Shown here: positions 175 through 9,737 of the stretch, piece after piece
Layout of the letters: each line of letters begins with the position of its first letter
How positions within the stretch are numbered: position 1 is the first letter of the stretch
Source of the DNA: a virus
IMG/VR virus record: IMGVR_UViG_3300025030_000090
Coordinates: 4,754 to 68,753 of that record
Reading direction: 5' to 3' (one strand)
DNA length: 64,000 bases
Made by a program: the position numbers and the translations under genes
The notes under the pieces: generated by a model
Databases searched by the model: none
Told to the model about the DNA's origin: nothing
What the model saw: the letters and a program-made list of their open reading frames with translations, nothing else

Positions 175-624
175 CTATATCCTCCCATCACATATTGGAC
201 CTATTCCAGTGGCTATAGACTCGGGGACAGTAAGCTTCCTACCACACCTTCCACATTTCCCTTCGTGCCAGACTTCCAAGTAGGCAGGAATTCGGTTCTG
301 GGAAATGGCAGCCCAGAATTGGTTGAATACCTTTTCCGAAGGAGCTTCCAGGGAAATCCTACTCTTTGCTCCGTGCTTGTAAACCTTGCCAGAAAAGATG
401 GTGCCCAAGTACTGGTAACTTCCTTCATTATCTGGGCCACTCATCAGAGCCACGAAGTGGGGAGATTCATCCCCAGGCTTCCTGATTCTGTAGGTCATGT
501 GAAGTCCAGAAATCTTGCTCTTGAGAGTAAAAGTGGCATTTCCTGCCAGAGCAAATTCCAGAACCTTCTCAGGGGTTTCCAGCATACCAGACATCATCTT
601 CTCTTTTCCCTTTCCTACCTTCAC
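175..624 (-). CDS. DUF6011-type Zn-binding phage protein
   Basis: C-terminal CGRCGRKLTVPESIATGIGPIC; real start probably the ATG near 597 after a purine-rich RBS. Confidence 0.75.
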   Translation of the reverse strand: MKVGKGKEKMMSGMLETPEKVLEFALAGNATFTLKSKISGLHMTYRIRKPGDESPHFVALMSGPDNEGSYQYLGTIFSGKVYKHGAKSRISLEAPSEKVFNQFWAAISQNRIPAYLEVWHEGKCGRCGRKLTVPESIATGIGPICDGRI

Positions 625-628
625 TTAT

Positions 629-738
629 ATCTTACTACTTATCTTGAGGAGAGTAAAATGTCTAAAATCGCCAAAATCAGCTGATTTACCCATGAAATCT
701 CATTAGTTCTCACTTTCTCTTTGGTTTTCTCACTTTTT
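629..738 (-). promoter_or_regulatory. early promoter P1 (TTTACT-N17-TAAGAT) with upstream 10-bp repeat array
   Basis: -35 at 652-657, -10 at 629-634; array begins at 699. Confidence 0.8.
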
Positions 739-1943
739 CACTCGAAGTCGGCAAGTTTGTATACTTTTGACTTTCTGGGAAGGTGTCGTGTTTTTCCCCC
801 TGGAAGCAAGAACCAAGACCATCGTTCTGGGTGTTTGGGGCTTATAGGATTTGCTTCTCCATCTGTGAATACCCAAACTACTTCGGGATATTTGCTCCTG
901 CTCAGCAGAGCATCTTCTATGCATGAGAAGGAAGTTCCTCCTCCGTCATATATCTTTTTCTCTTGGAGGTTGATTTCCTTGGCCCTTGTATCAAACACAT
1001 AAGCATGGATTTCAAAGTGTTTCTTTGGGATGCTTTTTGCCGCTTGCACGAATTGTGTGTTTGCATTCGAACAAGAACCAGAGATATCCAAAAATAGGTA
1101 GATTTCTACTTTTTTCTTCCCAAAATCATCACTTGAATTGTCGCTAGGAAGAAAGAAGTCACTTTGTAATCCTGAAAGTCTTCGATTCACTCTGGTCCAT
1201 TGCTCGGATTCTTCTTCATCCAGGGCCTTCTTGTTCCAGTTCTTTATTAGAGACATCCACTTCTTCTTTTCCACTACTTTGATTGAAGAAGCTTGCCATT
1301 GGATGTTGCTTTCATTGCCAGGAAGCTTTCCCGCTGTTTCTTCTATTTCTTCTTGAGTAATTTTCTCCCCAGCATCTTCTTGGCTTTTTCCTTGTAGCCA
1401 ATCTTCTATTGCCTTTCCTTCCCCAGAGGGATTGTCCATGGCCATCGGAATTCCGTCTTCACCTTTAGGAAGATTCTTCATCTGTTGAAGGTAGTAGTCA
1501 AAGGTTTGGTCTTCAAAAATCTTTGGCGTCGGGGGAAATACAGTATCAATCCAGCAAAGGCTTTCTCCGATAGAGATTTCCTCTCTTTTGAAGCCAAAGT
1601 ACTTTACCAGAAGATGGTTGATGGAAATGTCCATGGCAACATTCAAGGCTTCTGGAAAAAATTGTTCCAGAAAAGGTTCTCCTCTGGAGCCATGCCTCAA
1701 AGTAATGTGTCCCATTTCATGGCATATGACAAAGATTTTTGTGTTTTCATCCAGAGAATTCCAAAAGGCTTCGTTTATTTGGAACTCCAGGATATCATTC
1801 TCTTTGTTCAAGTGCACCGCAGCAGTTTTGATTTCGTCCGTGAAAACGGGCTTCCCTACTTCCCAAAACCTGGAGAAGAGAATTGCCTTTTCCTCAAGCT
1901 TCCTGGAGATGGAGAGATATTCATCAAGAGGGAAGGTGCTCAT
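738..1943 (-). CDS. metallopeptidase-like + VWA domain protein (DUF2201 type), MoxR partner
   Basis: CHEMGH zincin motif; DISGS MIDAS, GGGT, VFTDG. Confidence 0.85.
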   Translation of the reverse strand: MSTFPLDEYLSISRKLEEKAILFSRFWEVGKPVFTDEIKTAAVHLNKENDILEFQINEAFWNSLDENTKIFVICHEMGHITLRHGSRGEPFLEQFFPEALNVAMDISINHLLVKYFGFKREEISIGESLCWIDTVFPPTPKIFEDQTFDYYLQQMKNLPKGEDGIPMAMDNPSGEGKAIEDWLQGKSQEDAGEKITQEEIEETAGKLPGNESNIQWQASSIKVVEKKKWMSLIKNWNKKALDEEESEQWTRVNRRLSGLQSDFFLPSDNSSDDFGKKKVEIYLFLDISGSCSNANTQFVQAAKSIPKKHFEIHAYVFDTRAKEINLQEKKIYDGGGTSFSCIEDALLSRSKYPEVVWVFTDGEANPISPKHPERWSWFLLPGGKTRHLPRKSKVYKLADFE

Positions 1944-3022
1944 ATTTTTTCTACCGCCATGATATCATTTCCACTGAACTTTGTAGTTTGGTGGTGCTTG
2001 AAGAGATGGTGGGAGCATCGCATATAAGTTTTATATGTCCTCCTACATTCTGGACAGCGATATCGTTTTTCTGAAGCAGCAGCAGGAGACTTTCCCATAA
2101 AGTTTGAGTCACCTGGCTGGTACCTCTTTATGATATCCTTGATGAAGCCAGTTTCTTCTCCAAGCTTTGCGGCCACTTCCTGGGGAAACAAGGGAATGAA
2201 GAACTTGGAGAGTGGAATTGACTTGGTGATAATTGGAGTGATTTCGCTCAGATTTTCTCTGATGATGGTCTTGGCTCCTTTTATGTCTTTGGCAGCATAG
2301 AGACCTTCAAGAAGCTTTTTGAAGTCCTTCTTGCCATTCAGCAGCCCAAGCAAGGTGGTTACATTCACCTCATTGGGAAGAACATCCCTTATATCCCCTT
2401 GGGCTGTCCAAGCTTGCAGCGCATAATCCAGCCTACGGGGAGAGACAAGAATCTTTACCTTCTGCTCCAAATTCTTCCACCAGTCTATGGCATTCTTCGC
2501 CACATCTATGCCATATTTCTGTGTGAAGTATCCCAGGTTGGGAGTAAAGGGAACTGTTACCTGAATCTGGAATCTATCCTTCTGGGCAGGGTCTAGCTTT
2601 TCCACATCATATTCTGCCTCTGTGGAGTCATCTGGGTTAATGGCAGCCCATACTATGCGAAGGTTCTTGAACCTGTGGCCGTTGATGCTCTTGAACTGAA
2701 TAAGCTCCATCACGGCGTTCTTGACCTTCTTTGGAGCACGGTTGTACTCATCGAAGAAGAGAGCTTCTACGATGTCATCCCTGAATGAAAGGGGACGAAC
2801 GATATCCAGGAAAGACTTCCCTTCTGAATCCTTCTGTTCCTTGGGCACTCCGATGAAGTCCACCCAGGGGTCCATGGTGGCAGCAGAGAAGTACTTCCAT
2901 TTTAGATGATTGCGTTCAAAAGCTTCCTTCACGATAGTGGTCTTTCCGACGCCATGTTCTCCTACCAGAAGGACATTGTAGTTGTTAGCAATCCAGAAGT
3001 CCAGCTTTGCGTCAGTAATCAT
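1940..3022 (-). CDS. MoxR-like AAA+ ATPase with C-terminal C2H2-like finger
   Basis: GEHGVGKT, FFDEYNR, AAINP, LDPAQKDRF; CPEC..HLFKHH tail; stop/start overlap with VWA gene. Confidence 0.88.
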   Translation of the reverse strand: MITDAKLDFWIANNYNVLLVGEHGVGKTTIVKEAFERNHLKWKYFSAATMDPWVDFIGVPKEQKDSEGKSFLDIVRPLSFRDDIVEALFFDEYNRAPKKVKNAVMELIQFKSINGHRFKNLRIVWAAINPDDSTEAEYDVEKLDPAQKDRFQIQVTVPFTPNLGYFTQKYGIDVAKNAIDWWKNLEQKVKILVSPRRLDYALQAWTAQGDIRDVLPNEVNVTTLLGLLNGKKDFKKLLEGLYAAKDIKGAKTIIRENLSEITPIITKSIPLSKFFIPLFPQEVAAKLGEETGFIKDIIKRYQPGDSNFMGKSPAAASEKRYRCPECRRTYKTYMRCSHHLFKHHQTTKFSGNDIMAVEKI

Positions 3023-3050
3023 TTTCCCTTCCCCTTTCCCTTACACTATA

Positions 3051-3170
3051 ATCTTACTATAGATAGATTGCGGAGTAAAATGCCTAAATTGGCCTATTTC
3101 GAGTGATTTCAAGGCTGCATCTCATCCATCCTCATTAGTTCTAACTCATTCGCTTGTTTTCTCACTTTTT
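3051..3170 (-). promoter_or_regulatory. early promoter P2 (TTTACT-N17-TAAGAT) with 10-bp array
   Basis: -35 3074-3079, -10 3051-3056; array 3121-3170. Confidence 0.8.
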
Positions 3171-4436
3171 CATGACTTCCATCATTGCCTTACCAATTGC
3201 AAAGGTAAGCTCGCCTTCAAAGGCAATGTCTCCATCTTTGAATCCCTTCCCGTGAAGCCTTTCGTGAATCAGAACCGCAGTGGCGCTTCCGATGCTTCCA
3301 AGATTTTCTCTGGAGAGATAAACGATTCCCTTTTTGTAAAGTCCCACAGTGGTGAGCCCATTCTGAGCATTGTCTGCATTGCTGATGCTTTCTACTATTC
3401 TGACTTGAGAGATTTTTGCATCTGGGACTACCTTCTGGGATACTTCCCTGGCTATTTTCAAAACCTTCTTTTCCGCCTCTGTAAGAGGAGAAGCAAGTTT
3501 CAGAGGCTTGTGAACCTTTGGAGGGATTTCAGAACTTCTTTTTACCCTGCTGACATTCAAAGTGTTTGCAAGGTAGTAGGGGAAAGGAATTGGCCTCCAG
3601 CCCATTTGAATTGCTTTTGAGTCAGAAACTGGCGAATCGCTGATGCAAGCCTTCTTGCCATACAAACCGATGAAAGCGGTCTTCCAAAGCTTTTGTGTCT
3701 TGGAGGGATACATGTAGATTCCTGATTCGGCAATTGGTGATTCTTGGCCACATTTGATGAAATGGGCCAGAGTTTCTATTGAAGCAATGGAAGTGATTTT
3801 CTTGGAAATTTCCCCTTGAACGATTTGGATGTCCAAGATGCTGCGGTCTCTATTGGCAGCAACCTTGGTGGTAATATTGTATCCCCAAAGACACTTCTCC
3901 ATCTTCTGGACAAATACCCCATTGATATACAAGACACCTGATTCCTTTAGGATGCCAAGCCTCTTGGAGATGTATTCCTTGGGGGTCAATTCCAGGAACA
4001 AGTTCTTCGCAGTGAGAAAAATCTCTTTGGTGCAAGTGACGGTGATTTCTGTCCCAGCAGTTCTTCCATTGGGTGAAACATCCAGAGCAAGCACATTTGT
4101 TTCATAAGTAGTGGAGTACTGCATCCTGGGGGACACATCATATCCCACAGTAGACACAACTACGGGGACATTTTCCCTGGCAAGAACCAAAAGGGCCAAC
4201 TTCAAGCCTTCCCCGAATTGTCCTATCTCCCCATGATTTCCTTCCCCAAAAACCCAGAACGGGCGAGGAATTCCAGCAGCTTGGTCGCTGATGGTAGCTT
4301 GCCCTTGGGACTTGTGGTACTTTACGGAAATCTTGGTCTTGGTATCCAAGGCGTTGGCAAGAAGCTCCCGAAGAGCTTCTACCACAGTCCAGTTGGGGAT
4401 ATACTTGGGAGAAAGAGGATATTCGAGGGTTTGCAT
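3162..4436 (-). CDS. GHKL (HATPase_c-like) ATPase with C-terminal HExxH motif
   Basis: RELLANALD, ISDQAAGI, GQFGEGLKLA; LIHERLH near C-terminus. Confidence 0.78.
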   Translation of the reverse strand: MQTLEYPLSPKYIPNWTVVEALRELLANALDTKTKISVKYHKSQGQATISDQAAGIPRPFWVFGEGNHGEIGQFGEGLKLALLVLARENVPVVVSTVGYDVSPRMQYSTTYETNVLALDVSPNGRTAGTEITVTCTKEIFLTAKNLFLELTPKEYISKRLGILKESGVLYINGVFVQKMEKCLWGYNITTKVAANRDRSILDIQIVQGEISKKITSIASIETLAHFIKCGQESPIAESGIYMYPSKTQKLWKTAFIGLYGKKACISDSPVSDSKAIQMGWRPIPFPYYLANTLNVSRVKRSSEIPPKVHKPLKLASPLTEAEKKVLKIAREVSQKVVPDAKISQVRIVESISNADNAQNGLTTVGLYKKGIVYLSRENLGSIGSATAVLIHERLHGKGFKDGDIAFEGELTFAIGKAMMEVMKK

Positions 4437-4443
4437 TGTTTCT

Positions 4444-4677
4444 TTACTTCTTCTCTTCCATCCTGGCCGCTATGGTCTCTGGAAGGATGGCTGCTACTAC
4501 CAGGTGCCCGCTATCAAGATAAAGCACTGCTCTCGTGAGCTTTCCGCAAGTAGCGTCAATGAGAGTCCCCTTCTCTCTGGCATCTCTGATGGACTTCTTC
4601 ACTGGGGAAGATGCAGGTGAAAGAATCGAAAGCACTCTGTTGGGAGATACCAGGTTGCCGTATCCCAGAGAAATCAT
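4444..4677 (-). CDS. remA: RemA/DUF370-family DNA-binding regulator
   Basis: GYGNLVSPNRVLSILSPASSPVKK..A...G.LIDATCGKLTRAVL.LDSGHLV..AI.PETIAAR matches the family; ATG at 4677 overlaps upstream TGA. Confidence 0.85.
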   Translation of the reverse strand: MISLGYGNLVSPNRVLSILSPASSPVKKSIRDAREKGTLIDATCGKLTRAVLYLDSGHLVVAAILPETIAARMEEKK

Positions 4678-5201
4678 TCCTTCTCTCCTTCGTCTTCTAC
4701 TTCCCCTCTGAAGAATGCTTCCAGATGCTTGCAGGTGTGAACTCCAGTTCGCTTGAGGGAGAATCTCCACCCAGGACAAGAGCAGTAGTACTTGCCTTCG
4801 GTGTTGGAGAATCTTATCTCGTATATCCCGTGCTTCCCTGGGACGGTTGCCACCACAGTTGTTATAGTCATCTTGGCTATTCCCCCCAGCTTCTGAGTCA
4901 AGACCGAGGAGATTTCTTGACAGTATTTTTGGACATCCTCCATAGTGGCCCCAGGTTCAGACTTTTGGACTTTCAGGAGCATCCTGTCACCGACAAAGGG
5001 AATCAATTCGGAGAATTGGAAGGAGCGGGGAATGTAACCAACCACCTTATTTTCTCCTTGAGTGGCATTGGTGTAATGCTTCCAACCCCCATCAGCACCA
5101 GCACTTCTGGAGTTCTCCCACATTCCATCACTGATTTGACCTAGAAGCTCTTCGTTCCAGAGGTCTACCATTGCTTGCTTCCTGAAAGTAAAGGTTGCCA
5201 T
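4674..5201 (-). CDS. SWIM zinc-finger protein
   Basis: YYCSCPGWRF...CKHL. Confidence 0.75.
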   Translation of the reverse strand: MATFTFRKQAMVDLWNEELLGQISDGMWENSRSAGADGGWKHYTNATQGENKVVGYIPRSFQFSELIPFVGDRMLLKVQKSEPGATMEDVQKYCQEISSVLTQKLGGIAKMTITTVVATVPGKHGIYEIRFSNTEGKYYCSCPGWRFSLKRTGVHTCKHLEAFFRGEVEDEGEKE

Positions 5202-5235
5202 GTTTCTTTCCTCTCCTTTTCCTACCTACACTTAT

Positions 5236-5355
5236 ATCTTACTACTTGTTCAGGAAGAAGTAAAACCCCTAAATCAGCCGTTTTCGGGCGATTCTATGGG
5301 CTAATCTCACCCGTTCTCATTAGTTCTAACTCTACCTTTCGTTTTCTCATTTTCT
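5236..5355 (-). promoter_or_regulatory. early promoter P3 (TTTACT-N17-TAAGAT) with 10-bp array
   Basis: -35 5259-5264, -10 5236-5241; array 5306-5355. Confidence 0.8.
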
Positions 5356-5632
5356 CGGATATCTTGAATTCCGGAGCCAAAATAAGCCCACCATCGCCAT
5401 CTGGTTCTGGTCCTACAGGAGGGGTATCATCATTGCCCCTCTCATCATCGTCATCTTCAAAGTACTTGCGAAGCCATTCTATGTTTTCTTCTGTCTTGAG
5501 AAGTAATGCTTCCATAAAGGCTATGGTGACTTGAGAGCAAACGATACTGACAAGAATTTCTGATGCGCCGCATCTGGCTAGCTCTATTCTTGTCTTGCAA
5601 ATTCTCTCCTGAAGCTCTTTTTCATATTTCAC
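5294..5632 (-). CDS. hypothetical protein (C-terminus reads through the P3 array)
   Basis: ORF with stop/start overlap to neighbour. Confidence 0.55.
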   Translation of the reverse strand: MKYEKELQERICKTRIELARCGASEILVSIVCSQVTIAFMEALLLKTEENIEWLRKYFEDDDDERGNDDTPPVGPEPDGDGGLILAPEFKISEKMRKRKVELELMRTGEISP

Positions 5633-5820
5633 TTCTTCTTTCCCTCCACATATGCTGCTGCTTTCTCATAGACTCTAACAAAGACTTCATCGGGATTTTT
5701 CATTCCAGAAAACCATCCTTCTATGAAGCGAAAAATCAGTTCCCTCTCCTGAGGACTACCTTTTCGAGCAAGGGAAAGCGCCACATCCATTCGCTGCCGT
5801 AAGGTAAGCTTCTTTTCCAT
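5629..5820 (-). CDS. hypothetical protein
   Basis: AGGAG RBS before MEKKLTL; track ORF extends to 5877. Confidence 0.5.
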   Translation of the reverse strand: MEKKLTLRQRMDVALSLARKGSPQERELIFRFIEGWFSGMKNPDEVFVRVYEKAAAYVEGKKK

Positions 5821-6174
5821 GTTTCTCCTACAGTCGTTCAGTACTACCAGTTCTACAGAGGGATTCTCGTAAACCACAGAGACAACATCTCCTCTCGGTC
5901 CCGATTGATGAGGGTTCTGGTCAGCGCTACTCCATCAAGAATAAGAGAAGGAGGAAACTGCCTTGGCTTGAGTCCTAGCTCAGAGGCTTCCTTTACGATG
6001 ATTGCCATTACTTCTTTCCCTCCATGAACTTTCTGTAGTCTTCTTTGGTGTTGAAAACGGCGTATCCACCACGGACTCGGTGAACTAACCTTGAAGGACT
6101 GGCTGCCATTGCTTCCCACTTGCTTACCTGCACCAGGATTTTCACTTTTCCCTCCCTTTTTCCCTTCCATAGTT

Positions 6175-6294
6175 ATCATACTACTAATAGGTAGTGGAGT
6201 AAAACAGCTATATTCGCCAAAATCAACCGATTTCAAGGGCAAATCTCATTAGTTCTAACTCATTCTCATCCATTCGCTTGTTTTCTCACTTTCT
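6175..6294 (-). promoter_or_regulatory. early promoter P4 (TTTACT-N17-TATGAT) with 10-bp array
   Basis: -35 6198-6203, -10 6175-6180; array 6245-6294. Confidence 0.8.
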
Positions 6295-6315
6295 CTATTT
6301 TTGGGCTGAAAATGA

Positions 6316-6366
6316 ATATAGGGAGCAATCTAGCAGTGCTACCATCTGCTTTCATACTCCCTATAT
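6316..6366 (-). terminator. stem-loop at the 3' end of the structured-RNA/small-ORF transcript
   Basis: ATATAGGGAG/CTCCCTATAT outer stem, AGCAG/CTGCT inner stem; only a weak U tract. Confidence 0.4.
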
Positions 6367-6389
6367 CCAGAAGGGAAGGAAAAGAAGGA

Positions 6390-6614
6390 CTATGCTCTAA
6401 TAATGAGCTCTGCTACATAACCCAATTCAGTTAATTGCTCCTCAGAAAGAGAAACCCCTGCCCGAACATAGAATTCCGCAGTTTTTCTTCCTGCAAGGAC
6501 AGTTACTACAGGCTTGTTTCCCCTGATTTGGGATACTTTGTAGCTTCCATCATTGTTTCTGACCAGAGTTATCGTTGGTTTCTTTTCCATGATTCTTTTC
6601 TCCTTTTCGGCCAC
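6390..6614 (-). CDS. small hypothetical protein downstream of the structured RNA
   Basis: ORF; AAGGAG RBS favours the internal MEKKPT start. Confidence 0.6.
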   Translation of the reverse strand: MAEKEKRIMEKKPTITLVRNNDGSYKVSQIRGNKPVVTVLAGRKTAEFYVRAGVSLSEEQLTELGYVAELIIRA

Positions 6615-6816
6615 TATATTGTGGGCTTATGATTTTGAAGATCTTGAGACAACAAATGAAGGAGTTAGGAAGTAGTAGTTTTCGAAGGTTCAGCCTCCAT
6701 TGGAGACCAGTGTCAAAATTCGCGATGCAAAGTCAAGGTAAATTTAGTGGTCGGTTTGCTTTGCCCAAACCTCTGAAAATTCTACTTACTACTACTTTCT
6801 AACTCCTAATTTTTTG

Positions 6817-6873
6817 GCTTCAATTAAGATCCAAGGTTCAACACTAGTTTGAATATTGAGCCCAAACTTTGAA
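6817..6873. repeat. 57-bp direct repeat copy 1 (hairpin-forming)
   Basis: 53/57 identical to 7185-7241. Confidence 0.92.
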
Positions 6874-6907
6874 GCCAACTTTTGGACTTCCTGGTGAGAA
6901 GTTATTC

Positions 6908-6987
6908 TCTGGCTTGTCTCACTCCGCGAGATTGTTTCCTCCTCAACAATTTCATCGTTTACGAATCATCAGTCGCGTATTGCCAGA
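6908..6987 (-). ncRNA. type I hammerhead ribozyme
   Basis: CGCGA-CUGAUGA-uUCGuaaaCGAu-GAAA-UUGUU..AACAA-UC-UCGCG; stem I extended by UCUGGC/GCCAGA. Confidence 0.75.
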
Positions 6988-7184
6988 ACAGATGCCACCT
7001 GCACAGAAGTCCTCTGGTGGCCCACGATATTTAATTTTTAATATATCAGGAAAGATTTCGGGGATATGGCATCCAACTTCCGTTGAATCCGTATGACACA
7101 GTTCCTGACTTTCGCTTCTCTGCTACAGCAAGCCTCCCGACGAAATCTCCTTTGCTTGCGTTAAGTTTTCTCCTGATAATCTCA

Positions 7185-7241
7185 GCTTCAATTAAGACCC
7201 AAGATTCAATACTAGTTTGAATATTGAGCCCGAACTTTGAA
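7185..7241. repeat. 57-bp direct repeat copy 2
   Basis: see copy 1. Confidence 0.92.
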
Positions 7242-7506
7242 ACTAAAGTTATTAAATTAGGCAGCCCTAACCCCAACACTGCCTTTTCTCGACCACTTAT
7301 AAGCAGAGCTTGCTACATCCAATACAGCAAGATGCTCCTGCACTCGAGAATTCCCATATTCGAGGAGGTTGGTGGAAGATGCTTTGCAACTCCCTTACCA
7401 ACAATCCTCAAATACGGAAGGTTTAGGTTATCATCCTTGGCAGTTTTCAGGAAGGGTTGATGAGGCCTTCTCCTTCTGGCTTTGTGCCCTGCCCCTTCCA
7501 TATATA

Positions 7507-7596
7507 AATATACTACATACGAAGGTGGTAGTAAACTCTTTCTACAGGCCAAAATTGGGCAATTTCAAGGCTGTATCTCATTAGTTCTAATGATTT
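7507..7596 (-). promoter_or_regulatory. early promoter P5 (TTTACT-N17-TATATT) driving the structured RNA
   Basis: -35 7530-7535, -10 7507-7512; array starts at 7577. Confidence 0.75.
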
Positions 7597-7634
7597 TGAG
7601 TGGTTTCTTTAGTTTTTGCTTCTTCTAGTTATGA

Positions 7635-7838
7635 TTAGGCTAGTGCAAATGGGTTTCTTTTAGAGGATAATCTTCGTTCTTTCAGAAAATGTATGCGCTT
7701 TTCTAAATCTTTTTTAGAAATTGAGCCATTCAGGGAATCCAATACCTGCAAAGCGGCATGAATGTCGTATATAGCTCCTCTCCTATCCACGTGAATCCTC
7801 TGCTTCATGATTCTTCGAACCTTTTTCTCGGTAGGCAT
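7635..7838 (-). CDS. hypothetical protein
   Basis: AAGGAGG RBS, promoter upstream. Confidence 0.6.
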   Translation of the reverse strand: MPTEKKVRRIMKQRIHVDRRGAIYDIHAALQVLDSLNGSISKKDLEKRIHFLKERRLSSKRNPFALA

Positions 7839-7870
7839 TTTTGTTGCCCTCCTTTTCTTTTTCCAATTTA

Positions 7871-7899
7871 ATGGTATAACTTTTGGGGAGGGGAGTAAA
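7871..7899 (-). promoter_or_regulatory. promoter P6 (TTTACT-N17-TACCAT)
   Basis: same -35 and spacing as P1-P5. Confidence 0.6.
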
Positions 7900-8044
7900 T
7901 AGGTAAAGGTACCTAATTTTGAAGCTGAAGATTTTGAAGTTGTTAGGTATTGTTACTTATGGGTAGGAAACTATAGGCTTGTCTTCCAAGGCTCCGGTTT
8001 TGTGAAAAACTTGAAAAATCCGTATCTGTGTTTTTCGGTTTTCT

Positions 8045-8254
8045 TCAAGGATTTTGCCGCCTGGAAAAAGCTTGCTGGGAAGAATTTCCTGCCAAGTCAG
8101 AGTATCTTCCAACAATCTTCAGAGACACCTTCTCCTTGCATATAGGACAACCTTTGCTGTATTTTTCTGGCCGAAAAACATCACCCCTTTCTGCATATGC
8201 AACAAAGTGTCCATTCTCGCAGTGCCATTCAAGACCAGGAAGAGTAAACATCAA
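8045..8254 (-). CDS. small Zn-ribbon-like hypothetical protein
   Basis: CENGH...CPIC. Confidence 0.5.
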   Translation of the reverse strand: MMFTLPGLEWHCENGHFVAYAERGDVFRPEKYSKGCPICKEKVSLKIVGRYSDLAGNSSQQAFSRRQNP

Positions 8255-8415
8255 TCACCAACACCCGAATATCCCGAGTATGGTTGTGGTTGTAGTAGCA
8301 AGAACGATTCCAGCCCAGAAACAGTATTCTGTTATGCGTAGCATTTTCTTACTACGAACCTTGGTAGCAATCATCAGAGAGAGTATTGATATAGTATATC
8401 CTGTAATAAGAAATA

Positions 8416-8859
8416 TCACAGTTTGATTACCTCACAGTCATAGATTTTCGCCAGGTGAAGAATTGTCTCTTTGTATACTTCACTGGAACTATCAGGAACC
8501 CACAGGCCAGATATAATGGCTCTGTTGCTTCGGAAGCCTTCCCGATGTGTTACTACATTTCCGTAGTGGATAACAGAACCAATAGCCATATTCAAATCTA
8601 GAAACCTATTTGAGCCATCAAGATATAAATTCTGAAGAAGTCGGAGAGAATCTTCATAAGAGTAGTATCCGCAAGTGCATTGTCCCTTGTATGTATGGGT
8701 AGCACAAGCAGAAGCTCTCTCTTTCCAGCTTCCCAGGGTCTTTCGGCATATTCCCAGATTTTCTTTCTTCCACTGTGAGGAAAAAGCCTCGGAAAAAAGA
8801 GCCATATCTCTGGCTCTTGGGTCTTTCTTTATCATCCAGGCTCTGTATCCTACAAACAT
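8416..8859 (-). CDS. conserved-looking phage hypothetical protein
   Basis: GYRAW...CTCGYY...HREGFR pattern; RBS. Confidence 0.6.
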   Translation of the reverse strand: MFVGYRAWMIKKDPRARDMALFSEAFSSQWKKENLGICRKTLGSWKERASACATHTYKGQCTCGYYSYEDSLRLLQNLYLDGSNRFLDLNMAIGSVIHYGNVVTHREGFRSNRAIISGLWVPDSSSEVYKETILHLAKIYDCEVIKL

Positions 8860-9209
8860 TGTCTTCTCCTTTTCTTTCCAGGAGCATTCATTGGTCTTCC
8901 ATCATCAGGTTGAGTAGACCACCTCTCAACGATAATCCCCAGGAAAGATAACCTTCGTAGAGATAGGTTTCCTCTGGGGATTATTTCGGATGCCATTTTT
9001 ATTATAGGTCGCCTTCCTCTTTCGAGGCATTCAATATAAAAACATTTTTTTAGCATTATTCGTTGGCTTCGTCAGGTCATCGTCTCACCTCCACTTTCTC
9101 TGGGACACGCAAAGGAACTGAAGGGAGCCTTCTGGGGCTTGGGAACATTTGCATCTACTTTGGTTGGCTGCCCGATGTTCATCATCCTCTCCTTTTCCCT
9201 TACACCATA

Positions 9210-9238
9210 ATCATACTACTTATTCAGAGGCAGGTAAA
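9210..9238 (-). promoter_or_regulatory. promoter P7 (TTTACC-N17-TATGAT)
   Basis: same architecture; degenerate array starts at 9280. Confidence 0.7.
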
Positions 9239-9737
9239 ACTTGAAAAATAGCCAAAATCAGCCATTTTATCCTTGAAATCTCACTTATTCGCATTATTTC
9301 GTGTGATTTCTTTTGTTTTCTTGTACTTTCAGAGTATTCAATCTTGCTTGTATGATTATTAATGCAGTTTCCAAGCCATCTTTCTTCCCAGATTTTTTGC
9401 CTGACATATCTGGGATTCAAACCTTCGTATGTCATATCAATCTCTCATTTCCCAAGTCTCTGATTTTTGACTGTATAAGCATCATATCTTGCAGAGTAGG
9501 CTGCTCTTTGCTCAACATCGGCAGAGAATCTTCAAGAAGCTTCCGAAGTTTTTCCAGCAGTTTTCTCTGCATCTCTTTGGCTGTTTTATTAGCATCTCTT
9601 CTTGGCATCATATGTTTTTACTTTCCCTTCTTGCTTGGTATTATCTTTTGTGCATAAATAACAAGGAATTTTTACTTTTTGTTGCAAATTGAGCATTGAA
9701 TAGAACCATTTCTTTCCGTTGCACAAAATACAAGTCA

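What the first reader, a model, noticed from the sequence alone, without database searches (positions are those of the whole stretch)
6908..6987. Type I hammerhead ribozyme embedded in the large RNA
Seen on the minus strand: stem I CGCGA/UCGCG, core CUGAUGA, stem II UCG/CGA with a UAAA loop, GAAA, stem III UUGUU/AACAA, triplet AUC. Predicted cut between 6930 and 6929. Stem I continues past an internal loop into UCUGGC/GCCAGA, as in natural hammerheads with loop-bulge contacts. The atypical feature is a U-U at the 10.1-11.1 position (normally G-C), which could reduce or regulate activity.
Basis: partly seen in the sequence, partly recalled or inferred. Interest (0 to 1): 0.8.

Follow-up and report, generated by a model that had tools for sequence, protein, structure and literature searches.

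The report
Probable variant hammerhead ribozyme in phage
The flagged stretch has every core base and all three stems of a self-cutting hammerhead RNA, one known weak-pair variant aside. A second, much clearer hammerhead lies 2 kb upstream in the same phage, so this is probably an ordinary phage message-cutting element, though cutting is untested.

Summary

**For a real hammerhead**
- About 0.001 such motifs are expected per window at the thresholds found, and 0.02 at looser ones.
- My scan found an unreported type II hammerhead at 8990-8892 on the same strand, with 6-, 3- and 11-bp stems and a 6-bp loop I/tail pseudoknot. About 6e-6 are expected per window, and its lowest-energy fold is the hammerhead fold.
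- Clustered hammerheads between phage genes, and active natural U10.1-U11.1 variants, are both in print (PMC3088659).

**Against**
- Rfam gives only 17.9 bits against a threshold of 48.5, and the type I model finds no match. Rfam also misses the strong type II site.
- The hammerhead fold is not the predicted lowest-energy fold (-16.1 against -18.8 kcal/mol).
- No relatives and no RNA runs were found, so covariation and cleavage are untested.

**Verdict:** probably (about 0.6) a weakened type I hammerhead in the structured leader behind early promoter P5. It is a new member of a known kind. This scan has already noted hammerhead arrays in other phages.

The parts
6908..6987 (-). Candidate type I hammerhead (HH-I), whole motif including the outer extension of stem I
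6982..6987 (-). UCUGGC, 5' strand of the outer helix. It pairs with GCCAGA at 6908-6913 across the internal loop AAUA / GAGUGAGACAA.
   Evidence: Present in the lowest-energy folds. Pair probability is 0.16-0.18 in the 891-nt fold.
6973..6977 (-). CGCGA, 5' strand of stem I. It pairs with UCGCG at 6925-6929.
   Evidence: Pair probability is 0.81-0.86 in the 891-nt fold.
6966..6972 (-). Core CUGAUGA (C3 to A9)
6954..6965 (-). U10.1 (6965) opposite U11.1 (6954), enclosing stem II UCG/CGA and the UAAA loop
   Evidence: Pair probability is only 0.03-0.04.
6950..6953 (-). GAAA (G12, A13, A14, A15.1)
6931..6950 (-). Stem III, AUUGUU with AACAAU (6 bp, including A15.1-U16.1), with the Shine-Dalgarno-like loop GAGGAGGA (6937-6944)
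   Evidence: Present in the local lowest-energy folds. Pair probability is 0.06-0.10 in the 891-nt fold.
6929..6930 (-). C17 (6930) and the predicted scissile bond between 6930 and 6929
   Evidence: Follows from the hammerhead numbering applied. Cleavage itself is not tested.
8892..8990 (-). Newly noticed type II hammerhead (HH-II):
- UCC 8990-8988.
- GAAA 8987-8984.
- Stem III 8984-8974 with 8942-8932 (11 bp, 31-nt loop).
- C17 = 8931, cut between 8931 and 8930.
- Stem I GUUGAG 8930-8925 with CUCAAC 8914-8909.
- CUGAUGA 8908-8902.
- Bulged U8901.
- GGA 8900-8898, giving G10.1-C11.1.
- AGACCA 8897-8892 can pair with loop I UGGUCU 8921-8916.
   Evidence: The lowest-energy fold is the hammerhead fold, z = -2.08. 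About 6e-6 are expected per window.
7507..7535 (-). Early promoter P5 (TTTACT, 17 nt, TATATT). It drives the ORF-poor structured RNA that holds HH-I; the start is near 7500.
   Evidence: It belongs to a six-member promoter family.
9210..9238 (-). Early promoter P7 (TTTACC, 17 nt, TATGAT), upstream of the 37-aa ORF (9185-9072) and HH-II
6620..7500 (-). Structured, ORF-poor RNA behind P5 in which HH-I lies
   Evidence: Lowest-energy fold -286.1 kcal/mol against -241.6 +/- 9.1 in 20 shuffles, z = -4.88. The plus strand gives z = -3.16. Stops occur in all frames.
7185..7246 (-). 62-nt hairpin repeat, copy 1, upstream of HH-I
   Evidence: 90% identical to copy 2. Fold z = -4.93.
6817..6878 (-). 62-nt hairpin repeat, copy 2, downstream of HH-I
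   Evidence: Fold z = -3.74.
6390..6614 (-). 74-aa ORF with a strong Shine-Dalgarno sequence. It is the first credible gene downstream of HH-I and would sit on the 3' cleavage product.
8416..8859 (-). 147-aa ORF. Its ribosome-binding site (GGAG, 8869-8866) lies about 25 nt behind HH-II.

Best explanation
6987-6908 (minus strand) is a type I hammerhead self-cleaving ribozyme with the known U10.1-U11.1 variant of stem II.

It is one of two hammerheads in the early region of an uncultured phage from groundwater and soil. The record is 68.8 kb, and a longer contig of 142 kb holds the same gene.

Proposed mechanism:
- Transcripts starting at early promoter P5 (about 7500), and any read-through from P7, fold stems II and III as local hairpins.
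- When the 3' strand of stem I (6929-6925) and the outer helix (6913-6908) are made, the three-way junction closes.
- The 2'-OH of C6930 then attacks its own 3' phosphate.
- This gives a 5' product of about 570 nt ending in a 2',3'-cyclic phosphate.
- It also gives a 5'-OH product carrying hairpin repeat 2, a long hairpin and the 74-aa gene.
- The upstream type II hammerhead cuts in the same way at 8931|8930, just ahead of the ribosome-binding site of the 147-aa gene.
- Together they would process the early transcripts into separate RNAs, as proposed for clustered prophage hammerheads.

Shown here: the motif, its statistical rarity, its strand and non-coding setting, and the second hammerhead.

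Inferred: transcription from P5, the fold, cleavage, and its rate. The U-U pair and the 3-bp stem II probably make it slower than a consensus hammerhead.
For: 1. All invariant core positions and all three helices are present at the stated coordinates.

2. Chance expectation is about 0.001 per window at the thresholds found and 0.02 at looser ones (10 and 223 of 200,000 simulated contexts, times 19 heptamers). An analytic estimate gives 0.0008.

3. The site lies on the transcribed strand in a non-coding stretch:
- Stops occur in all frames.
- The only ORFs over the wider stretch have no credible homologues. The 79-aa ORF finds only itself. The 77-aa ORF finds a 99% copy of itself and one repeat-rich 1043-aa protein at 27% identity, whose score is summed over 6 stretches.
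- The stretch lies behind a promoter that belongs to a six-member family.

4. A second hammerhead, type II, lies at 8990-8892 on the same strand:
- Stems of 6, 3 and 11 bp, a canonical core and G10.1-C11.1 after a bulged U.
- A 6-bp Watson-Crick pairing between loop I and the 3' tail.
- About 6e-6 expected per window, or 6e-8 with the pseudoknot.
- Its lowest-energy fold is the hammerhead fold.
- It was the only hit on that strand in the stricter scans.

5. Perreault et al. 2011 (PMC3088659; passages, section 8) state four relevant points:
- Multiple hammerheads often flank genes in prophages.
- Type II hammerheads commonly have the loop I/3'-tail pseudoknot.
- Stem II is often only 2 bp.

6. 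[quoted passage not shown]

7. Stem I has pair probability 0.81-0.86 in the fold of the whole 891-nt RNA. The outer helix and stem III appear in the local lowest-energy folds.
Against: 1. Rfam finds no hammerhead at gathering score in the window. The best score is 17.9 bits against 48.5, with the type III model, E = 0.47 on 501 nt. That alignment uses only the core and stem II. The type I model RF00163 gives no match at E <= 10, with 15 of 15 candidates scored.

2. The most conserved pair, G10.1-C11.1, is replaced by U-U. My stricter scan, which requires a standard pair there, does not find the site. By Perreault's own screening rule such a hit is rejected at first.

3. Thermodynamics do not favour the fold:
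- The hammerhead fold is -16.1 kcal/mol against a lowest-energy fold of -18.8, an ensemble share of 0.0007.
- In the 891-nt fold, stems II and III have probabilities of 0.03-0.10, because the rival hairpin AACGAU/AUUGUU wins.
- The nearest-neighbour model ignores the tertiary core.

4. Local folding z-scores are unremarkable: -0.66 and -0.39.

5. No homologue was found, so there is no covariation evidence. The four Logan DNA runs laid on the stretch show no letter differences there, and none covers the whole motif.

6. Across about 250,000 windows, a motif of this quality will sometimes arise by chance.

7. Unlike HH-II, it is not directly in front of a strong ribosome-binding site. The 74-aa gene starts about 315 nt downstream.
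Confidence: 0.6

Rival explanations
1. Chance motif. The CUGAUGA...GAAA...UC arrangement arose by chance inside an A- and G-rich, helix-rich leader RNA. The real structure there is the one the nearest-neighbour model prefers: stem I closing a domain with the AACGAU/AUUGUU hairpin. No cleavage occurs.
For: - Rfam models fail.
- The hammerhead fold is 2.7 kcal/mol above the lowest-energy fold, with an ensemble share of 0.0007.
- Stems II and III have low pair probability.
- Positions 10.1-11.1 are U-U.
- Local z-scores are ordinary.
- At loose thresholds, about 0.02 type I motifs are expected per window, and about 0.06 if all three topologies are counted (the factor of 3 is my inference). The scan reads very many windows.
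Against: - At the thresholds found, only about 0.001 are expected per window. Non-coding sequence on the transcribed strand is a small share of the window, which lowers that further (inference).
- A statistically compelling hammerhead lies 2 kb away on the same strand.
- Rfam also misses that one, so Rfam's silence is weak evidence here.
- The mismatch is exactly the one reported in active natural variants.
Confidence: 0.27
2. Decayed relic. A hammerhead once worked here but has lost activity: G10.1-C11.1 has been lost and stem II weakened. It now survives only as part of the leader's structure.
For: - The core is intact, but the most conserved pair is gone and stem II has 3 bp.
Against: - All 13 invariant positions are intact. 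Decay would be expected to hit them as often as 10.1-11.1 (inference).
- U-U is the best-tolerated mispair.
Confidence: 0.13

Closest known systems
Type I hammerhead ribozymes of bacteria and phages (Rfam RF00163, clan CL00010; Perreault et al. 2011, PMC3088659)
   Same: - Core C3-A9, G12-A14, A15.1-U16.1 and C17.
- An open stem I, with hairpin stems II and III.
- A long helix III, as in the bacterial-like type I variants.
- A phage, non-coding setting.
   Different: - U-U at 10.1-11.1.
- Stem II of 3 bp.
- No Rfam match for RF00163 at E <= 10.
- Stem I continues through a 4/11-nt internal loop into a 6-bp helix.
- The whole motif lies about 570 nt inside a structured leader of about 880 nt, rather than in a short intergenic spacer.
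Natural hammerhead variants with a U10.1-U11.1 mismatch (Perreault et al. 2011, section 8 and Figure 5)
   Same: The same mismatch at the first pair of stem II. The paper reports it as occurring in nature, and as supporting more activity than any other mispair.
   Different: No sequence-level comparison was possible.
Clustered type II hammerheads with a loop I/3'-tail pseudoknot that flank genes in prophages (Rfam RF02276; Perreault et al. 2011)
   Same: - HH-II at 8990-8892 has this architecture and sits just ahead of a ribosome-binding site.
- With HH-I it brackets a block of four small genes (8859-7635).
- The proposed role, cutting long phage transcripts into gene-length RNAs, is the published one.
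   Different: - There are only two ribozymes, of two different topologies.
- HH-II has an unusually long stem III (11 bp, 31-nt loop) and a bulged U after A9.
- It is not picked up by RF02276.

Membership tests
Hammerhead ribozyme (HH-I, 6987-6908) | Invariant core: C3 U4 G5 A6 N7 G8 A9, G12 A13 A14, A15.1-U16.1, H17 (not G) | tested here: met
   CUGAUGA 6972-6966, GAAA 6953-6950, A6950-U6931 and C6930. The consensus is as recalled and as described in PMC3088659.
Hammerhead ribozyme (HH-I, 6987-6908) | Three helices radiating from the core, in one of the three circular permutations | tested here: met
   Stem I has 5 bp plus a 6-bp extension. Stem II has 3 bp. Stem III has 6 bp. The topology is type I.
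Hammerhead ribozyme (HH-I, 6987-6908) | Standard pair at 10.1-11.1 (nearly always G-C) | tested here: not met
   U6965 lies opposite U6954. This is highly conserved but not strictly defining: natural U-U variants are reported.
Hammerhead ribozyme (HH-I, 6987-6908) | Score at or above the gathering score of an Rfam hammerhead covariance model | tested here: not met
   There were 0 matches at gathering score. The best was RF00008, 17.9 bits against 48.5. RF00163 gave none at E <= 10. This is an operational criterion, and the same models miss HH-II.
Hammerhead ribozyme (HH-I, 6987-6908) | Tertiary contact between stem I (loop or bulge) and loop II, or a pseudoknot | tested here: inconclusive
   An internal loop lies 5 bp from the core in stem I, and a 4-nt loop caps a stem II of four layers. 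That geometry is compatible (recalled). I saw no specific contact or pseudoknot by eye.
Hammerhead ribozyme (HH-I, 6987-6908) | Covariation that supports the stems in homologues | not testable with these tools
Hammerhead ribozyme (HH-I, 6987-6908) | Site-specific self-cleavage 3' of position 17 | not testable with these tools
   No RNA run was listed. In vitro work is needed.
Type II hammerhead (HH-II, 8990-8892) | Invariant core, stems I and III closed by loops, stem II open | tested here: met
   The lowest-energy fold of 112 nt is this fold.
Type II hammerhead (HH-II, 8990-8892) | Pseudoknot between loop I and the 3' tail after stem II (common in type II; PMC3088659) | tested here: met
   UGGUCU 8921-8916 can pair with AGACCA 8897-8892, 6 Watson-Crick pairs (read by eye). 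The same tail can alternatively extend stem II.
Type II hammerhead (HH-II, 8990-8892) | Rfam RF02276 gathering score | tested here: not met
   No match at E <= 10, with 7 of 7 candidates scored. No hammerhead was among the 5 weak matches.

The most novel reading that the evidence does not exclude
HH-I is a deliberately weakened hammerhead (U-U, 3-bp stem II) whose active fold competes with the AACGAU/AUUGUU hairpin. The surrounding structured RNA of about 880 nt, with its two 62-nt hairpin repeats, would gate that competition. A phage or host factor, or a ligand, bound to the large RNA would then decide when the structured 5' RNA of about 570 nt is released from the message of the 74-aa gene. 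That would make it a natural switchable hammerhead inside a new class of large phage non-coding RNA.
Probability: 0.1. Interest if true: 0.65.

Novelty: new member of a known kind. Interest (0 to 1): 0.35.

Why it matters
If HH-I cleaves, this phage would use two hammerheads of different topology to cut its early transcripts. One of them would sit deep inside a long, strongly folded leader rather than in a short spacer. It would be a further natural case of the U10.1-U11.1 variant, useful for asking how that pair tunes rate or metal use.

In practice, both sites escape the Rfam hammerhead models. This shows that covariance-model scans undercount phage hammerheads that have long inserts or a weak stem II.

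The general phenomenon, hammerheads between phage genes, has been known since 2011. The scan has also already met it many times in other phages.

Tried and rejected
**Relatives.** None of these searches gave a usable locus:
- blastn against the phage collection.
- Exact or gapped DNA patterns in viral contigs.
- A 21-mer from the hairpin repeat in metagenome contigs.
- The search for related loci with the 147-aa protein, the 424-aa protein or alignment A1, in viral contigs, metagenome contigs and genome contigs.
- A 17-mer from HH-II in viral contigs gave 21 loci. I inspected 21 of 21; all are unrelated and none has the hammerhead context.

Protein searches found only near-identical copies, plus one relative of the 147-aa protein at 72% identity on a 1.6-kb contig.

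**RNA evidence.** No RNA holder was listed among the 18 runs. The four DNA runs laid on the stretch (X7, X11, X12, X16) gave short contigs identical to the window where they cover it. None spans the whole motif. I draw no conclusion from this.

**Readings rejected**
- Type III reading, from the Rfam alignment and one hit. Rejected because stem I would have no loop.
- Recoded or hidden gene. Rejected because stops of all three kinds occur in every frame.
- The 77-aa ORF's match to P0006 (E = 9e-7). Rejected as homology, because P0006 is a highly repetitive 1043-aa protein and the score is summed over 6 weak stretches.
- A protective 5' hairpin on the 3' product of HH-I. Not supported: z = +0.36.
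- Further hammerheads with one core mismatch. None was found beyond decoy level: 1 hit per strand against 1 per reversed strand.
- A known large RNA, intron or tRNA. Rfam gave 0 matches at gathering score and only weak chance-level matches in E-value mode. There are 0 tRNAs.

**Closed material.** Supplementary figures S6 and S7 of PMC3088659, with the structures and activities of the U-U and other variants, were closed and may bear on the comparison.

Full report
**Setting.** The window is bases 4754-68753 of a linear IMG/VR virus record of 68,753 bases, estimated 78% complete.
- Near-identical DNA is held by 18 listed groundwater and soil metagenome runs from 9 studies. All are DNA, and 4 may be the source sample.
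- Nearly all long ORFs lie on the minus strand.
- The closest isolated phage by one 424-aa protein is Moorella phage MTATph1, at 29.6% identity. This is a distant, uncultured large phage.
- Six copies of one promoter-plus-upstream-array module lie on the minus strand between 590 and 9310.
- The consensus scan calls three of them as TTTAC[TC], 17 nt, TAT[GA][AT]T. These are P7 at 9238-9210, P5 at 7535-7507 and P4 at 6203-6175.

**The observation.**
- Outer helix UCUGGC/GCCAGA (6987-6982 with 6913-6908).
- Stem I CGCGA/UCGCG (6977-6973 with 6929-6925).
- CUGAUGA (6972-6966).
- U6965 opposite U6954.
- Stem II UCG/CGA with a UAAA loop.
- GAAA (6953-6950).
- Stem III AUUGUU/AACAAU with loop GAGGAGGA.
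- C17 at 6930, so the bond between 6930 and 6929 would be cut.

**Is it more than chance?** I planted the heptamer in 200,000 Markov contexts of the window's minus-strand composition.
- 10 completed a type I motif with stems at least as long as found, and 223 did so with looser stems (4, 3, 4).
- With the window's 19 heptamers, that is about 0.001 and 0.02 expected. An analytic estimate agrees, at 0.0008.
- The thresholds 'as found' are post hoc. The fair figure lies between the two, and should be tripled to allow for the three topologies.
- The motif lies in sequence with stops in all frames under any stop reassignment, on the transcribed strand, about 570 nt behind P5.

**What argues against.**
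- Rfam 15 finds nothing at gathering score in the whole window.
- In E-value mode the only hammerhead match is to the type III model: 17.9 bits against a threshold of 48.5, E = 0.47 on 501 bases. It aligns just the core and stem II.
- The type I model RF00163 gives no match at E <= 10 in the record.
- The hammerhead secondary structure costs -16.1 kcal/mol against a lowest-energy fold of -18.8, an ensemble share of 0.0007.
- In the fold of the 891-nt RNA, stem I is likely (0.81-0.86). Stems II and III (0.03-0.10) lose to the hairpin AACGAU/AUUGUU.
- Local z-scores are ordinary: -0.66 and -0.39.
- The nearest-neighbour model does not see the hammerhead's tertiary core, so this is weak evidence. 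It is still not support.

**A second hammerhead.** I scanned the whole record for all three topologies. It lies on the minus strand at 8990-8892 (sequence):
- UCC, then GAAA.
- An 11-bp stem III (8984-8974 with 8942-8932) with a 31-nt loop.
- C17 = 8931.
- Stem I GUUGAG/CUCAAC with a 10-nt loop.
- CUGAUGA, then a bulged U, then GGA.

Its properties:
- With the U bulged, stem II is G-C, G-C, A-U, so G10.1-C11.1 is canonical. [quoted passage not shown]
- Loop I UGGUCU can form six Watson-Crick pairs with AGACCA directly after stem II. This is the pseudoknot that Perreault et al. describe for most type II hammerheads.
- The lowest-energy fold of the 112-nt stretch is the hammerhead fold, z = -2.08, with 8 of 200 shuffles as stable.
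- I estimate 6e-6 such motifs per window, or 6e-8 with the pseudoknot.
- It is the only minus-strand hit in the stricter scans. The reversed-sequence decoys gave 0 hits, or 1 each with a relaxed core.
- It lies in the 212-nt gap between a 37-aa ORF behind P7 and the 147-aa ORF, about 25 nt ahead of that gene's GGAG.
- Rfam's type II model finds nothing there at E <= 10, probably because of the long stem III insert (inference).

So Rfam's silence on HH-I carries little weight in this genome.

**What is known.** From Perreault et al. 2011 (PMC3088659) I saw passages and the whole of section 8. They report:
- Hundreds of bacterial hammerheads, many near prophage genes.
- Multiple hammerheads flanking genes or short gene blocks. 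The authors suggest that long phage transcripts are processed into gene-length mRNAs.
- Stem II is often only two pairs.
- Their screen rejected hits with a mispair next to the core, but tested those in prophage contexts as likely functional variants.

HH-I is exactly such a case. The details of the published U-U variants are in supplementary figures that I could not open.

**Weighing.**
- Two hammerhead-shaped motifs lie in non-coding gaps of one phage's early region, on the transcribed strand. They bracket the genes at 8859-7635.
- One of the two is statistically compelling.
- Given that, and the published habit of phage hammerheads to come in groups, I put the odds that HH-I is a true hammerhead that still cuts at about 0.6.
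- A chance motif gets about 0.27, and an inactive relic about 0.13.
- These odds are inference. Nothing here tests cleavage or covariation.

**Likely working.**
- P5 transcripts start near 7500, and P7 transcripts may read through. No minus-strand terminator-like site was found between 9120 and 7500.
- These transcripts would be cut at 8931|8930 and 6930|6929.
- The HH-I cut would free a structured 5' RNA of about 570 nt holding hairpin repeat 1. The other product holds hairpin repeat 2, the long 6823-6644 hairpin and the 74-aa gene.
- That gene is followed by a hairpin with a U-rich tail at 6369-6313.
- The U-U pair, the short stem II and the competing hairpin suggest slow or conditional cleavage.

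**The surrounding RNA.**
- The stretch 7510-6620 folds far better than shuffles on the minus strand (z = -4.88, 20 shuffles), and better than the plus strand does (z = -3.16).
- It matches no Rfam family.
- It holds two 62-nt direct repeats, 90% alike. Each folds into a long hairpin, with z = -3.74 and -4.93.
- Its ORFs have no credible homologues.
- What the large RNA does is open. It is the subject of other notes of this scan.

**Novelty.** This is a new member of a known kind. The scan has already recorded hammerhead arrays in the early operons of other uncultured phages, and one type I hammerhead inserted in a larger phage RNA. These are AI notes listed, and I did not check them.

Noticed in passing
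window 8892-8990 (minus strand): An unreported type II hammerhead. It has an 11-bp stem III, a 6-bp stem I, a bulged U after A9 and a 6-bp loop I/3'-tail pseudoknot. It sits just ahead of the ribosome-binding site of the 147-aa gene, and the Rfam models miss it.
   Followed up: yes
window 6817-6878 and 7185-7246: Two 62-nt direct repeats, 90% alike, each fold into a long hairpin (z = -3.7 and -4.9) and bracket HH-I.
- All six differences are transitions. By eye, four keep pairing, including one A-U to G-C change.
- Both copies also read the same peptide frame (SKFGLNIQTS...), so coding is not fully excluded.
- They may be nuclease or protein-binding sites.
   Followed up: partly
window 590-9310 (minus strand): Six copies of one early promoter module with a conserved upstream array. 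Positions: ...TGAGAT..TTGAAATC..TTTTGGC..TTTTACT, 17 nt, TAnnAT. Five are followed within about 30 nt by a ribosome-binding site and a start codon. P5 is not.
   Followed up: partly
window 7046-7552 (minus strand, one frame): A run of 168 codons is broken by a single TAG, giving ORFs of 79 and 77 aa. That is long for this composition. Neither ORF has a credible homologue, and one 99% variant of the 77-aa ORF exists elsewhere (P0005).
   Followed up: partly
window 6937-6944 (minus strand): Loop III of HH-I is GAGGAGGA, a perfect Shine-Dalgarno-like sequence with no start codon at the right distance. I do not know whether it binds the ribosome or a CCUCC stretch elsewhere in the RNA.
   Followed up: no
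window 8866-8884 (minus strand): In the predicted 3' product of HH-II, the ribosome-binding site AGGAG of the 147-aa gene pairs with CUCCU 10 nt upstream. This could gate translation.
   Followed up: no
window 6313-6369 (minus strand): A 24-bp imperfect hairpin followed by AUUUUC lies behind the 74-aa gene. It is the likely end of the P5 transcript.
   Followed up: no
window 6644-6823 (minus strand): A long-range hairpin with 36-nt arms (78% complementary) encloses about 108 nt, between hairpin repeat 2 and the 74-aa gene.
   Followed up: no
whole record: The 74-aa protein is on record on a contig of 141,984 bases. The complete phage genome may therefore be about twice the length of this record.
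   Followed up: no
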